A stretch of DNA of 64,000 bases from Clostridia bacterium. GTDB lineage: Bacteria; Bacillota; Clostridia; Oscillospirales; CAG-272. Of the stretch, positions 12,298 to 27,761 are shown piece after piece (positions within the stretch are counted from its first letter, which is position 1; each line of letters begins with the position of its first letter). The notes under the pieces are model-generated. The model did not search any database. It saw only the letters and a list, made by a program, of their open reading frames with translations, and was not told where the DNA came from. The stretch is taken from assembly GCA_017453245.1 (NCBI GenBank), contig JAFTKM010000018.1:10916-74915 (forward strand), written 5' to 3'. Made by a program: the position numbers and the translations under genes.

Positions 12298-14080
12298 TAA
12301 GAGTAAAAAGAAAAGGGAAGAGCTCACCTCGTCATTAAAGGTTATAGGCAGGATAATCAAGGACACAAAGCCGATTTTGCCCTCGTTGATCTTAGCGGCA
12401 GTAATCAGCCTTTTGTCCATAATCCTTTCTATGCTCGCGCCCGAGCTCATCGGCACACTCACCGACGGAATATACGATTACGTCACTCTCGGTGCTCCGA
12501 TGGATCTATCCCGCACCGCCAGGATATCCATCATTCTCATCGTCTCATACCTTGCCTCGGGAATACTCAGTATGATTACGATGATCATAATGAACAACAC
12601 CGTCTCGCGCCATTACACCTGCCGTATAAGAGTGGATATGAGCGCAAAGATATCTAAGATACCTATCAAGAAGGTCGACACAACACCAAACGGCGAGATA
12701 ATCTCCCGTATGACCAACGACGTCTCTATTATGGGTGGCTCGGTACACGATATCTTCAATATTATTATAAACGGTGTACTCAAGCTCATTGTAATCACGG
12801 TGCTGATATTTATCTCAGATCCCATAATGGCGTCGGTCATTATTCTATTTGTTCCCGCGTCGATATTCCTCTCCGCAAAGCTTGCCGCAAGGAGTGAGAA
12901 GTACTTCGACCTGAGCCGCGAGGCGGCAGGAAAAATATACTCCGCGACAGAGGAGAATCTCACCGGCTTTGACACCGTCAAGGTATATAATCTCGAGCGT
13001 CACAGACAGGACGGATATGAGAAGCTCTCCGAGGATTACAGAGTAAAATCAGAGCGCGGATATCTTACCTCGGGCGTAGTTCAGCCTATTGTTGCAATAG
13101 TCAACAATCTTGCCTATATAGCTATATGTATCGTCGGCAGTATTCTCGTTATCCGCGGTACTTTGCGAGTTGGCGATCTTATGGCGTTCATTCTTTACAC
13201 TCAGCTTTTCTCAGGACCTCTTGAGTCCATCTCGGGCGGTATGTCTATGATGCAGTCCACCATAGCCTCCGCGCGCAGAGTGTATGAATTCCTCGACTCC
13301 GAGGAGATGAAGGAGCCCGAGCGAAAAGAGCTTGATGAGCCGTGCCTTGGCGCAGTCAAATTCGAGAACGTCGCCTTCTCCTACACCGAGGATAAGCCGC
13401 TTATAAAGAGCCTTGATTTAGATGTTCTCCCGGGACAGAAAATTGCGATAGTAGGCCCTACCGGTGGCGGAAAGACAACAATAGTTAACCTTTTGATGCG
13501 TTTTTACGATCCCGACTCTGGTACTATATCCGTTGACGGAAGATGTATACAAGAGATGAATCGCTCGGATGTCAGAGAGATGTTCTCGATGGTGCTTCAG
13601 GATACGGTCCTCTTCTCGGGTACGGTATACGACAACATCGCCTACGGCAATCCGTCGGCAACAGAGGGCGAGGTCAGGGAAGCGGCGCGCCGCGCTCACA
13701 TTGACTTCTGGATCGACGGATTACCTGACGGATATAACACAAGGATCAACGAGGAGAGCACCAATATCTCGGGCGGCCAGAAGCAGCTTCTCACCATCGC
13801 CCGCGCCTATCTCTCGGACAGACCTATCCTCATACTTGACGAGGCTACCAGCAACGTTGATACCCGCACCGAGCTCATTATCCAACAGACTATGGATGAG
13901 CTTATGAAGGGCAGGACAACCTTTGTTATCGCCCACCGCCTCTCAACCGTTGAGAATGCGGACGTCATACTCGTTGTCAGTAACGGTGACGTTGTGGAGA
14001 AGGGCACACACCGAGAGCTCCTTGCCTCTGGCGGACTCTACTCCGAGATATACAACAGTCAGTACACCATAGTTAAATAA
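12287..14080 (+). CDS. Heterodimeric ABC exporter subunit B (TMD+NBD, consensus site)
   Basis: GPTGGGKT, ISGGQKQ, ILDEATSNVD, IAHRLST; TTG start at 12287 after GGAGGTG. Confidence 0.9.
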   Translation: MKPDKSKKKREELTSSLKVIGRIIKDTKPILPSLILAAVISLLSIILSMLAPELIGTLTDGIYDYVTLGAPMDLSRTARISIILIVSYLASGILSMITMIIMNNTVSRHYTCRIRVDMSAKISKIPIKKVDTTPNGEIISRMTNDVSIMGGSVHDIFNIIINGVLKLIVITVLIFISDPIMASVIILFVPASIFLSAKLAARSEKYFDLSREAAGKIYSATEENLTGFDTVKVYNLERHRQDGYEKLSEDYRVKSERGYLTSGVVQPIVAIVNNLAYIAICIVGSILVIRGTLRVGDLMAFILYTQLFSGPLESISGGMSMMQSTIASARRVYEFLDSEEMKEPERKELDEPCLGAVKFENVAFSYTEDKPLIKSLDLDVLPGQKIAIVGPTGGGKTTIVNLLMRFYDPDSGTISVDGRCIQEMNRSDVREMFSMVLQDTVLFSGTVYDNIAYGNPSATEGEVREAARRAHIDFWIDGLPDGYNTRINEESTNISGGQKQLLTIARAYLSDRPILILDEATSNVDTRTELIIQQTMDELMKGRTTFVIAHRLSTVENADVILVVSNGDVVEKGTHRELLASGGLYSEIYNSQYTIVK

Positions 14081-21706: not shown

Positions 21707-21928
21707 ATGCTTGATAAGTTAAAGGAAATACTCGCTAAGGTCCTCCCCGACCTTGATATGTCCACCGTCACCGCCGACACCCGTCTTATCGATGACCTCG
21801 GCTTTGACTCGCTCGCTCTTATGATGATGTCTATGGAGATCGAGGATGCCTTCGGCTTCCGCTTCAAGGAGTTTGTGAGGTTTGAGACCGTCGGTGACGT
21901 TTGCACATATTTGGAAAGCAGAATATAA
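21707..21928 (+). CDS. Acyl carrier protein
   Basis: 73 aa, acidic, DLGFDSL phosphopantetheine site, EIEDAFG, TVGDV. Confidence 0.88.
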   Translation: MLDKLKEILAKVLPDLDMSTVTADTRLIDDLGFDSLALMMMSMEIEDAFGFRFKEFVRFETVGDVCTYLESRI

Positions 21929-21940
21929 AGAAACTGCTAT

Positions 21941-22410
21941 GCGTGTTATCCGTAACGGAGAACACGCAATGAATTGCAACGATGTTGCATGAATTGACAC
22001 TGCGTGTCATGAATTGCGGCGAACCGCATGAATTGCCCTTGTGGGCGTGAAGTTGTTGCAATTCAATTCATGGAGGAGGCAAACGCCGACGAGAAATCAT
22101 GGCGAAGCCAATTCATGGTGCCTCAGCATCAATTCATCCATAAAACAAGCAGAGCAAGAATATAAGGGTTTTCCTTGTACTCTTGCTCTTGTTTTTTCTT
22201 CTGTCGATATGTGGGCTTTGCCCACTCGATATGCTTTCGCTACGCTCAAGCTCGATATATTGTCGCTTCGCTCCAATTCGATATGAGATAAATCCCTCGT
22301 TTGCGAAGTAAACATATCGAGCCGTAGGCATATAGAGTTGCGTCAGCAACATATCAAAAATCCCGCGAGGGATTTATCTCGATGCGTGTTCTCCGTTAAG
22401 GATAACACGC
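21941..22410. repeat. Composite palindromic element: two hairpin-ladder modules flanked by inverted 27-bp REP-like hairpins
   Basis: 21941-21967 and 22384-22410 are reverse complements (26/27); internal ATGAATT/AATTCAT and TCGATAT/ATATCGA repeats separated by short hairpins. Confidence 0.85.
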
Positions 22411-22473
22411 TAAACCGCTTCTTTCTTTTTTTAGCTACCACCGATGAATTAATAAAGTTTCATATACTCGGTA

Positions 22474-22502
22474 TTGACATATGTGTTTTCGTCTGCTATA
22501 AT
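22474..22502 (+). promoter_or_regulatory. Consensus sigma-A promoter of GntR-ABC operon 1
   Basis: TTGACA-17 bp-TATAAT with a TG extension. Confidence 0.85.
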
Positions 22503-22556
22503 GATGTTAGTACAGATAATACAGATGATACAGACGATACAGAAAGGAGTGGTTAA

Positions 22557-22913
22557 ATGGATAAGGTTTTTTCCGGCAAGCGCGACGTTTATCTTGAGAT
22601 TGCCGAGCGCTATGAGAAATACATCACACTCGGCGTTATCAAGCCGGGGGAGAAGCTCCCGTCGGTCAGGACGGCGGCGACCGAGCTTCGCGTTAATCCC
22701 AACACCGTCCAGCGCGCCTACACTCTGCTTGAGGAGCGCGGATTCATACGCTCTATGCCTAAGAAGGGCGCCTTTGCCATACTCCCGACCGATTCGGGCA
22801 AGGGAAGTGAGACTCTGAAGTCGCTTACTGATGAGCTTATAAAACTCAAGGGTATGGGCGTTTCCAAAGAAGATATTATTTTTACACTGGAGGAGGTATA
22901 TAAAGATGATTGA
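22557..22913 (+). CDS. GntR-family regulator (YtrA subfamily)
   Basis: PGEKLPSVR..A.EL.VNPNTVQRAY..LE; short C-terminus; precedes an ABC ATPase. Confidence 0.9.
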   Translation: MDKVFSGKRDVYLEIAERYEKYITLGVIKPGEKLPSVRTAATELRVNPNTVQRAYTLLEERGFIRSMPKKGAFAILPTDSGKGSETLKSLTDELIKLKGMGVSKEDIIFTLEEVYKDD

Positions 22914-27685: not shown

Positions 27686-27761
27686 AGGGGTTTAGTTCAG
27701 TCGGTAGAACATCGGTCTCCAAAACCGAGTGTCGTGGGTTCAAGTCCTCCAGCCCCTGCCA
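27686..27761 (+). tRNA. trnW: tRNA-Trp (CCA)
   Basis: 76 nt; AGGGGTT/AGCCCCT acceptor stem, TCGGT-CTCCAAA-ACCGA anticodon arm, GGTTCAAGTCC T-arm, encoded 3' CCA. Confidence 0.97.

What the first reader, a model, noticed from the sequence alone, without database searches (positions are those of the whole stretch)
21941..22410. Hairpin-ladder elements: one branched, bistable architecture built from unrelated core sequences
Seen: module A (21969-22137) has 4x ATGAATT, each followed by a different short hairpin (GCAAC/GTTGC, GACAC/GTGTC, GCGG/CCGC, GCCC/GGGC), then 4x the reverse complement AATTCAT (one variant) separated by hairpins. Module B (22204-22382) repeats the plan with 4x TCGATAT and 4x ATATCGA-like cores. 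In each module a central segment is complementary to one terminal hairpin (22055-22065 with 21970-21980; 22285-22299 with 22366-22380, 15/15), giving two exclusive folds. A long hairpin (22142-22197) separates the modules, and inverted 27-bp palindromes (26/27) bound the whole unit. Many loops are C-GNA-G or its complement. Known: GNA triloops are exceptionally stable in ssDNA, and HUH enzymes (IS200/IS605 TnpA, RAYT) recognise ssDNA hairpins. Inferred: a structure-defined, non-autonomous mobile or ssDNA-signal family forming stacked multi-way junctions. I do not recognise a named family.
Basis: partly seen in the sequence, partly recalled or inferred. Interest (0 to 1): 0.85.

Follow-up and report, generated by a model that had tools for sequence, protein, structure and literature searches.

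The report
Hairpin-ladder repeats inserted in a terminator loop
The two "hairpin ladders" are real copies of an abundant, self-folding mobile repeat of gut Clostridia that sits inside the loop of a gene's terminator hairpin. Intact relatives of these ladders lie next to small Avd-like four-helix-bundle genes, a link I did not find described in the papers I searched.

Summary
It is not single-copy. This 1.59-Mb draft genome holds 52 ladders by an exact k-mer rule (0 in three shuffles) and about 120 ladder loci by nhmmer. The same ATGAATT ladder occurs in at least 120 stretches of other genomes, mostly gut and rumen Clostridia MAGs.

The window unit (21939-22413) is absent from the orthologous site of a relative, which has only stop, terminator and promoter. 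It recurs as a unit at another locus in a second relative, again bracketed by complementary A-run/T-run arms. It is therefore a MITE-like insertion in a terminator loop.

Ladders with intact partners sit directly 5' of PF05635/TIGR02436 four-helix-bundle (Avd-like) genes (27 of 36 such genes vs 91 of 1219 other genes). Each protein clade has its own 7-mer core. In other phyla these genes are flanked by inverted tandem heptamer arrays.

The HUH/RAYT idea is not supported. No Rfam family matches. How the element moves and what the protein does remain inferred.

The parts
21707..21928 (+). Upstream host gene: 73-aa carrier protein (PP-binding). Its terminator is the insertion target.
   Evidence: Pfam PF00550, E 1.3e-10. 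The orthologous gene in G035:C67 is 80% identical in DNA.
21922..21938 (+). A-rich 5' arm of the presumed host terminator hairpin (AAAGAAACTGC), now split from its 3' arm by the insertion.
   Evidence: It is the outer part of inverted repeat I1 (47 nt, 83%). It lies outside the stretch homologous to the G003 copy. It pairs with 22414-22429 in the DNA fold. The assignment is inferred.
21941..21967 (.). Left terminal 27-nt palindrome ('palT'): the element terminus and the cap hairpin at the hairpin end of ladder A.
   Evidence: There are 10 palT loci in the genome, all next to a ladder's hairpin end. Homology with the G003 copy starts here.
21969..22137 (-). Ladder module A, core ATGAATT(G). Read on the minus strand it runs from the plain end (22137) to the hairpin end (21969).
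   Evidence: nhmmer family famA has 31 loci in the genome. A further 45 full-length copies were found in other genomes.
22142..22203 (+). Central long hairpin flanked by an A-run and a T-run; it looks like a bidirectional terminator. It is part of the repeated unit.
   Evidence: Pair I2. It is conserved in the G003:C27 copy and in other palT-ladder-hairpin copies.
22204..22382 (+). Ladder module B, core TCGATAT. It runs from the plain end (22204) to the hairpin end (22382).
   Evidence: nhmmer family famB has 34 loci. A cognate four-helix-bundle gene with a TCGATAT ladder exists in relative G043 (L169/L192).
22384..22410 (.). Right terminal palT, the inverted copy of the left one (1 mismatch).
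   Evidence: Homology with the G003 copy ends at about 22413.
22414..22432 (+). 3' arm and T-run of the presumed host terminator (GCTTCTTTCTTTTTTT).
   Evidence: Pair I1. It resembles the 3' arm and T-run of the intact terminator at the empty site in G035. The assignment is inferred.
22474..22913 (+). Downstream host promoter (TTGACA-17-TATAAT) and GntR-family regulator gene (22557-22913). Neither is part of the element.
   Evidence: Sequence. Pfam PF00392. The promoter and gene are conserved directly after the terminator in G035.

Best explanation
Window 21939-22413 is one non-autonomous, MITE-like mobile unit. It consists of a terminal palindrome (palT), ladder A, a terminator-like hairpin, ladder B and an inverted palT. 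It lies inserted in the apical loop of the intrinsic terminator of the carrier-protein gene.

Each ladder is four copies of a 7-9-nt core with abutting hairpins, followed by four inverted cores. A single strand can therefore fold on itself into stacked junctions, or into an alternative fold in which the centre pairs with the terminal hairpin. Either fold brings the two ends of the insert together. The palT copies and the split host stem can then still pair, so the insertion is tolerated. This step is inferred.

The ladders are solo copies of the cis-element that accompanies Avd-like four-helix-bundle genes (PF05635/TIGR02436, the protein family also encoded in 23S rRNA intervening sequences). 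Each protein clade carries its own core. I infer that the protein reads its cognate core array, and that gene-plus-array cassettes are selfish, IVS-like insertions. Ladders left after gene loss, or copied without the gene, now litter the genome.

Shown: multi-copy status, structure conservation, filled and empty sites, terminator-loop location, linkage to the four-helix-bundle genes.

Inferred: the strand or molecule that folds, protein-core binding, the enzyme that moves the element.
For: Copy number:
- 52 ladders by the exact rule against 0, 0 and 0 in shuffles.
- nhmmer loci: famS 55, famB 34, famA 31, palT 10.
- At least 120 stretches in other genomes carry the ATGAATT ladder pattern.
- Summed contig depth over 21884-22418 is 10-200 times that of the flanks in 4 gut metagenome runs.

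Structure:
- Hairpin fraction is 72%, 87%, 94% and 88% against 3-13% in shuffles, with 47/60, 120/157, 84/87 and 156/190 distinct segments.
- The alternative pairing covaries: 39/54 against 7.8%.

Mobility:
- The orthologous site in G035:C67 has only stop, terminator and promoter.
- The same unit sits at a different locus in G003:C27 (82% column identity). Homology ends at the palT edges, and the flanks AAAAATGCTCACG / CGTGAGCATTTTT are complementary.
- Variant units at C21:6702-7078, C18:1688, C17:82004-82392 and C5 are likewise bracketed by complementary A-run/T-run arms, with 16, 12 and 9 nt exact complement at C21, C18 and C17 and the arms at all four loci read by eye in the alignment.

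Link to the four-helix-bundle (4HB) genes:
- All 7 4HB genes in this genome have core arrays upstream.
- 27 of 36 genus 4HB genes meet the array rule, against 91 of 1219 other genes.
- Core labels need 12 changes on the protein tree (12 states, 38 rows); shuffles give a minimum of 24 and a mean of 26.9.
- Gain and loss of cassettes is seen at the rumA 3' end (ladder in 15 of about 26 evaluable genomes) and at the thrS leader (1 of 17).
- The protein is Avd-like: pLDDT 94, with top folds 2RLD, 2GSC, 4DWL and 8UBB.
- Inverted heptamer arrays flank 4HB genes in 8 of 10 plasmid loci from Cyanobacteriota, Bacteroidota, Spirochaetota and Chloroflexota.
Against: - No transposase, recombinase or target-site duplication was identified, and no copy with palT ends encloses a gene in this genome.
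- Copies are old (about 75-86% identical), so recent activity is not shown.
- No cognate 4HB gene for cores ATGAATT or TCGATAT was found in this assembly, which is 64% complete. G003 has many ladders but no 4HB match, at 63% completeness.
- The core-protein correlation could be plain co-inheritance of linked DNA (caveat).
- Some ladders lie upstream of the 4HB promoter and so are not in its mRNA. This does not fit a purely RNA-level role.
- Module A alone folds only marginally better than shuffles (z = -2.5).
- The window's host arms are imperfect (83% over the 47-nt repeat I1).
- The array rule for the plasmid loci had no control set.
Confidence: 0.6

Rival explanations
1. REP/BIME-like elements moved by an HUH Y1 transposase (RAYT or IS200/IS605 TnpA) that recognises the ssDNA hairpins.
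For: - The ends are hairpins. palT keeps a conserved mismatch that makes the two strands differ.
- G..A loops, which I recall as very stable in ssDNA, are enriched on one side of each unit.
- The insertion target is itself a hairpin.
Against: - PF01797 was not found in this genome (64% complete).
- It was found in only 11 of 41 genus genomes (7 of 19 high-quality). Ladder-bearing G007, G010 and G017 lack it.
- In 4 of 4 Y1 loci read, the ends are IS200-type and no ladder or palT is nearby.
Confidence: 0.07
2. A host-beneficial structured RNA signal. Ladders in UTRs would form a regulon bound by 4HB proteins, or act as stabilisers, terminators or insulators, and would be kept for that function rather than as selfish DNA.
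For: - In several 4HB loci the promoter lies upstream, so the cap hairpin and ladder form the 5' leader.
- Ladder A lies in the 3' UTR, ahead of the central terminator.
- The hairpin end faces a gene's 3' end in 34 of 51 full copies, usually within 10-85 nt (gene calls are crude).
- Hairpins covary strongly.
Against: - Sites are not conserved between species.
- Copies occur in both orientations and in divergent promoter regions.
- Some ladders are upstream of promoters.
- No Rfam family matches.
- No RNA run was listed, so expression is untested.
Confidence: 0.15
3. A double-stranded DNA array of protein-binding sites (iteron- or operator-like). Cores spaced about 20 bp apart would put the sites on one face of the helix, bound by the 4HB protein or another factor. 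The hairpins would be incidental.
For: - Core spacing is 16-28 nt.
- In some loci the ladder abuts the -35 box of the 4HB promoter.
- Four direct plus four inverted sites resemble multi-site transposon ends (recalled, not tested).
Against: - It does not explain why 72-94% of the variable spacers are perfect end-to-end hairpins with compensatory changes.
- It does not explain why the centre covaries with the terminal hairpin.
- The plain heptamer arrays have 7-nt spacing.
Confidence: 0.1
4. Not mobile: arrays grow in place by slippage and local duplication, and their similarity elsewhere reflects segmental duplication.
For: Tandem expansions exist: C12:1-313 has 7 cores with two alternating hairpins, C19 has 7 cores, and C16:15099 and C16:15304 are tandem copies.
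Against: - About 120 dispersed loci have unrelated flanks.
- The unit has sharp homology boundaries at different loci in different genomes.
- A clean empty site exists.
Confidence: 0.03

Closest known systems
MITEs and mosaic intergenic repeats of bacteria (REP/BIME of enterobacteria, Correia and NIME of Neisseria, BOX and RUP of pneumococci); names recalled, general reviews seen only as search listings
   Same: Small (about 365-475 nt), non-coding, many copies, intergenic, modular or mosaic build, terminal inverted repeats, strong secondary structure, and location at gene ends and terminators.
   Different: The internal build is a ladder of one short core repeated directly and then inverted, with variable hairpins that abut the cores exactly. 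Several core families share one plan. No cognate transposase was found. The linked gene is a 115-aa four-helix bundle, not a RAYT or DDE enzyme.
23S rRNA intervening sequences carrying an S23p/four-helix-bundle ORF (abstract of PMC4990558 seen in the listing; passages of PMC10053308 read)
   Same: The same protein family (PF05635). Insertion into the apical part of a helix, with complementary ends that restore the stem. Described in that abstract as a selfish element.
   Different: Here the host helix is a terminator hairpin or an inter-cistronic site rather than rRNA. The window copy has no ORF. Heptamer arrays and ladders are not mentioned in the text I saw. RNase III excision is untested here.
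Avd of diversity-generating retroelements (PDB 4DWL; DGR RNP 8UBB)
   Same: The fold of the linked protein: TM 0.75-0.88. The two closest solved relatives (2RLD, 2GSC) have five chains per entry. By the title of the 8UBB-series entries, Avd works within a ribonucleoprotein.
   Different: No reverse transcriptase (PF00078) was found in this genome. No template or variable repeats were seen. Sequence identity to Avd is only 12-13%.
Cyanobacterial STRR tandem heptamer repeats (name and consensus recalled; search listing only)
   Same: Tandem 7-nt arrays in intergenic DNA. Such arrays flank four-helix-bundle genes in Nostoc, Planktothrix and Euhalothece plasmids.
   Different: The STRR literature seen in the listing treats them as fingerprinting repeats. 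I found no link to PF05635 genes. The window's ladders have hairpins between the heptamers.
Insertion elements that target hairpins (IS1397 in REP loops, class C group II introns after terminators, integron attC); recalled
   Same: The target is a folded hairpin or terminator, not a primary sequence.
   Different: None of their enzymes or RNA domains was seen here. The insertion lies in the loop, between the two arms.

Membership tests
REP/BIME with RAYT | A Y1 HUH transposase gene flanked by its own REP copies | tested here: not met
   No PF01797 in G000. Found in 11 of 41 genus genomes. In 4 of 4 loci read there is no ladder or palT beside the gene.
REP/BIME with RAYT | Short, conserved, imperfect palindromes in high copy number | tested here: inconclusive
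   palT is a conserved 27-nt imperfect palindrome, but it has only 10 loci in G000 and is always next to a ladder. The ladder hairpins are not conserved in sequence.
MITE | Small, non-coding, multi-copy, with terminal inverted repeats | tested here: met
   The unit is 475 nt with palT at both ends (1 mismatch). Variant units are about 365 nt with a half-palT terminal repeat, CTTARCGGAGAA. Copies occur in several genomes.
MITE | Filled and empty sites | tested here: met
   G035:C67 is empty at the orthologous site. The same unit sits elsewhere in G003:C27.
MITE | Target-site duplication and a cognate autonomous element | tested here: inconclusive
   No duplication could be read at 6 junction pairs. 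No palT pair encloses a gene in G000. The assembly is 64% complete.
Rfam RNA families (including large ornate RNAs) | A score at or above the family's gathering threshold | tested here: not met
   Across the whole window only a tRNA passes. In 21850-22560 the best matches score 22 bits against thresholds of 65-90.
IVS-type element with four-helix-bundle ORF | Insertion in the apex of a helix, with ends that restore the stem | tested here: met
   Complementary host arms bracket the unit in the window (I1), in G003, and at C21, C18, C17 and C5. The host helix is a terminator, not rRNA.
IVS-type element with four-helix-bundle ORF | Carries a PF05635 ORF | tested here: not met
   The window unit has no such ORF. 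Related ladders lie next to one.
IVS-type element with four-helix-bundle ORF | Excised from the transcript by RNase III | not testable with these tools
   No RNA run was listed.
Diversity-generating retroelement | Reverse transcriptase plus Avd plus template/variable repeats | tested here: not met
   No PF00078 in G000. Only the Avd-like fold is shared.
Integron attC | An IntI recombinase and R/L box hairpins | not tested
   No search for IntI was made.

The most novel reading that the evidence does not exclude
PF05635 four-helix-bundle (Avd-like) proteins are sequence-specific readers of short repeated cores. Gene plus inverted core arrays form a widespread, so far unrecognised class of selfish cassette that inserts into hairpin loops and between operon genes. 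This class would unite 23S rRNA intervening sequences, cyanobacterial STRR heptamer arrays and the hairpin ladders of gut Clostridia. The ladders would be its non-autonomous offspring.
Probability: 0.3. Interest if true: 0.85.

Novelty: new variant of a known kind. Interest (0 to 1): 0.72.

Why it matters
- The ladders make up roughly 1% of this genome and break assemblies. Many copies lie at contig ends, so recognising them helps MAG assembly and annotation.
- They offer a natural case of an insertion that survives inside a terminator by folding on itself.
- They give a first testable partner, a cognate repeated 7-mer array, for a very common protein family of unknown function whose only studied member is the DGR accessory protein Avd.
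- If the link holds across phyla, it would also explain the long-known tandem heptamer repeats of cyanobacteria.

Tried and rejected
- Rfam, at gathering and permissive thresholds, gave nothing relevant.
- Literature searches found no description of ladder repeats, and no link between PF05635 genes and heptamer arrays or STRR. Passages were read in PMC10910872, PMC10053308 and PMC8491059. All other papers were seen only as listings or abstracts. Supplementary files were not opened and may hold relevant tables.
- Sequencing runs: no RNA holder was listed. Laying contigs of four DNA runs showed high summed depth over the repeats, but no clean joint across the unit. One contig in each of X1 and X2 skipped 21980-22147 with other letters in between, and I could not interpret it.
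- First relatives looked at (G003:C92 and G005:C96) lacked the unit, but synteny was broken there, so they were not counted as empty sites.
- Reverse transcriptase: none was found in G000, so a DGR or retro-element reading was dropped.
- DUF559 (PF04480): two genes were found in G000. Their flanks were not examined.
- Viral contigs: 26 loci matched two ladder patterns. Only 6-7 are true ladders, and none carries a 4HB motif. A phage origin was not pursued.
- Gene-orientation statistics rest on a crude ORF caller and are only a weak hint.
- My first test of the alternative pairing used a fixed 5-nt arm that included loop bases, and it under-counted. It was replaced. In one search the famS test caught only 2 copies and is not used.
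- The T-box regular expression matched nothing and was replaced by the alignment.
- A profile search of metagenome contigs with the 4HB alignment was not possible.
- I did not test protein-protein or protein-nucleic-acid binding.

Full report
**What is in the window.** From 21969 there are four ATGAATT(G) cores, each followed by a short hairpin that begins and ends exactly at the cores. Four AATTCAT cores follow (one is AAATCAT), again separated by hairpins. From 22204 the plan repeats with TCGATAT and ATATCGA-like cores. A 25-nt-arm hairpin with a T-run (22143-22203) separates the modules. A 27-nt palindrome stands at each end (21941-21967 and 22384-22410; 1 mismatch; 0 matches expected by chance). 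The centre of each module is complementary to its terminal hairpin plus last core (I3 18 nt at 83%; I4 15/15). The whole unit folds with z = -12.0 and -11.9 as RNA on the two strands and z = -11.0 as DNA. Module B alone gives z = -5.0. Module A alone gives only z = -2.5. Rfam has no match: only a tRNA in the whole window at gathering scores, and nothing above 22 bits in the region.

**It is a large family.** The window is G000:C13:10916-74915 in a 1.59-Mb, 27-contig draft that is 64% complete. I scanned for any 7-mer occurring three or more times at 12-40-nt spacing, with two or more inverted copies within 220 nt. The scan finds 52 modules, against 0, 0 and 0 in three block shuffles. The cores differ: GTGAAGT is the most common, followed by ATGAATT, NCGATAT, ATGATGT and others. 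Iterated nhmmer gives 55, 31 and 34 loci for three core families and 10 for the terminal palindrome. The ATGAATT ladder pattern occurs in at least 120 stretches of other genomes. By record title these are mostly gut and rumen Clostridia MAGs: Christensenellales, Oscillospiraceae, Acutalibacteraceae and Ca. Scatosoma. In four gut metagenome runs, the summed contig depth over the repeats is 10-200 times that of the flanks.

**One blueprint, and a conserved structure.** Oriented copies share one plan:
- a plain end that starts with the first core;
- three or four core-hairpin units;
- a centre that repeats the 3' arm of the terminal hairpin next to a core;
- three inverted cores with hairpins;
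- a terminal hairpin and a last, often variant, core;
- a GC-rich 'cap' hairpin of variable sequence, of which the 27-nt palindrome is the commonest form.

Segments between cores are end-to-end hairpins of at least 3 Watson-Crick pairs in the following fractions:
- 72% of 60 segments (ATGAATT family, this genome);
- 87% of 157 segments (GTGAAGT family);
- 88% of 190 segments (ATGAATT family, other genomes), against about 3% of shuffles for these three sets;
- 94% of 87 segments (CGATAT family, up to 2 nt trimmed at either end), against 13% of shuffles.

Most of the segments are distinct sequences. The alternative centre/terminal helix follows the sequence of the terminal hairpin in 39 of 54 copies, against 7.8% of permuted pairs. 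Loops are polar. Hairpins beside AATTCAT-type cores have G..A loops (GNA in 20 of 31, 8 of 11 and 27 of 49 triloops). Those beside ATGAATT-type cores have the complement. Because the module is a pseudo-dyad, this is true on either strand, so loop content does not single out one working strand.

**It is an insertion in a terminator loop.** A close relative keeps the flanking genes (G035:C67; 80% and 78% DNA identity). Between the carrier-protein stop and the GntR promoter it has only a plain terminator of about 66 nt. In another relative the whole unit recurs at a different locus (G003:C27; 82% column identity). Homology starts and ends at the outer edges of the two palindromes. The flanks there, AAAAATGCTCACG and CGTGAGCATTTTT, are perfectly complementary. 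In the window the flanks AAAGAAACTGC and GCTTCTTTCTTT form the outer part of the 47-nt inverted repeat I1. Shorter variant units consist of a half-palindrome end, a hairpin-rich segment, a terminator-like hairpin, one ladder and the palindrome. At C21:6702-7078, C18:1688, C17:82004-82392 and C5 these are likewise bracketed by complementary A-run/T-run arms (16, 12 and 9 nt exact at C21, C18 and C17; all four loci read by eye in the alignment). I read this as insertion into the apex of intrinsic terminators. I could not read a target-site duplication, and I found no enzyme.

**The HUH idea fails.** PF01797 was not found in this genome. It is present in only 11 of 41 genomes of the genus (7 of 19 high-quality ones). 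The four loci I read are ordinary IS200-like genes without ladders or palindromes.

**The unexpected partner.** I clustered 731 ORFs from the 120 loci around ATGAATT ladders. The second most widespread cluster (7 loci) was a protein of about 115 aa. In six of those loci an ATGAATT ladder ends 10-20 nt before its ribosome-binding site; in the seventh (L028) the ladder beside the gene has ATGATAT cores. The protein is PF05635/TIGR02436, the 'four helix bundle protein'. The model has pLDDT 94. The closest folds are 2RLD and 2GSC, followed by Avd of diversity-generating retroelements (4DWL and the 8UBB series).

This genome has 7 such genes. All have repeated-core arrays upstream: four have ladders, and three have plain tandem heptamers, which in two cases flank the gene as inverted arrays. 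In a sample of the genus, 36 of 41 genomes carry the gene. Of 36 genes, 27 meet a fixed array rule, against 91 of 1219 other crude genes of G000. Each protein clade has its own core. On the protein tree the 12 core labels of 38 rows need 12 changes, while label shuffles give a minimum of 24 and a mean of 26.9. Gene and array are linked DNA, so this result shows co-inheritance at least. That the protein reads the core is my inference.

**Cassettes come and go.**
- Downstream of a rumA-type methyltransferase, 15 of about 26 evaluable genus genomes have a ladder. The cores are of five or more types, and the 4HB gene is present in some and absent or decayed in others. The remaining genomes end with a plain ...CLTRK stop.
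- Filled sites share a cap hairpin whose 5' arm is the coding end of the gene. An identical cap precedes ladders of different cores.
- Between the thrS T-box terminator and its ribosome-binding site, only G000 of 17 genomes has a cassette of about 470 nt: four ATGCAAA heptamers, the gene, then four inverted heptamers. The two closest relatives are empty.
- Decayed genes beside intact ladders (L189, L200, L197) show how solo ladders can arise.

**Beyond Clostridia.**
- Across the class, 52 of 150 genomes have the gene. Most of the 29 loci I read show either ladders or inverted heptamer arrays.
- In ten plasmid records of named organisms, a 6-mer rule finds inverted arrays on both sides of the gene in 8 loci, two of them weakly. 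The organisms were Nostoc, Anabaena, Planktothrix, Pseudanabaena, Euhalothece, Bernardetia, Chondrinema, Treponema and Ca. Chlorohelix. I ran no control for this rule.
- In several of these records the gene is wedged between genes of one system: cas2 and cas1, a helicase and a methylase, or an RND adaptor and its permease.
- These arrays look like the tandem heptamers known as STRR in cyanobacteria. That name is recalled, and my searches found no paper linking the two.

**How it most likely works.**

Shown:
- a self-complementary, structure-constrained, multi-copy unit;
- gained at a terminator loop;
- belonging to a family whose complete members accompany Avd-like genes.

Inferred:
- The ladder folds in a single strand so that the ends of the insert meet. 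The palindromes and the split host stem can then pair, which makes the insertion harmless. This is the same logic as a 23S rRNA intervening sequence (abstract of PMC4990558).
- The 4HB protein binds its cognate core array.
- Solo ladders are non-autonomous derivatives.

Against a purely RNA reading, some ladders lie upstream of the gene's promoter. Against dependence on the protein, no cognate gene for the window's two cores was found in this incomplete assembly. No RNA data were available.

**Verdict.** I file it as a new variant of a known kind, the MITE-like mosaic repeat, with an unusual internal design and an undescribed gene partner.

Noticed in passing
window 22505-22545: The 5' leader of the GntR-family gene holds three to four tandem copies of a 9-mer, (A/G)ATACAGA(T/C), just before the ribosome-binding site. 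They are conserved in G005 and G035 and may be the regulator's operator.
   Followed up: no
window 27686-27758: A tRNA gene, the only Rfam match at gathering score in the window.
   Followed up: no
G000:C6, about 12900-13100 (locus L134/L261): A half ladder (four GTGATAT cores with hairpins and no inverted half) lies inside the variable region of the thrS T-box leader. At the same spot G050 has tandem ATGCAAA-type heptamers, and G035 has neither.
   Followed up: partly
L137:885-1475 (G000:C17) and L084: A 196-aa ORF overlaps the stop of the four-helix-bundle gene. It has an HNH-like motif by eye but no Pfam or NCBIfam match. Other 4HB genes are followed by a GNAT acetyltransferase (two loci on C9) or by small membrane proteins.
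   Followed up: partly
G000:C2:71900-83200 (locus L131): A run of small genes of unknown function on one strand, each separated by partial ladders (first halves only) of two core families at about 0.8-1.1-kb spacing.
   Followed up: partly
rumA 3' ends, loci L172-L201: Where a ladder follows the gene, the protein is extended by 3-9 residues (RRLDN, KRQIQQ, RQTN, SDKAT, TFDN). These residues are encoded by the 3' arm of the cap hairpin, which pairs with the gene's own last codons and follows their synonymous differences.
   Followed up: partly
L307, L311, L309, L310, L312 (plasmid records): Four-helix-bundle genes lie between cas2 and cas1, upstream of cas1, between a helicase and an N-6 methylase, and between RND pump genes. 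A CRISPR association of this Pfam family also appears in a figure legend of PMC10910872.
   Followed up: no
genus genomes: Many ladder and 4HB matches lie within a few hundred bases of contig ends, so these repeats seem to break short-read assemblies.
   Followed up: no
Their flanks were not inspected.
   Followed up: no
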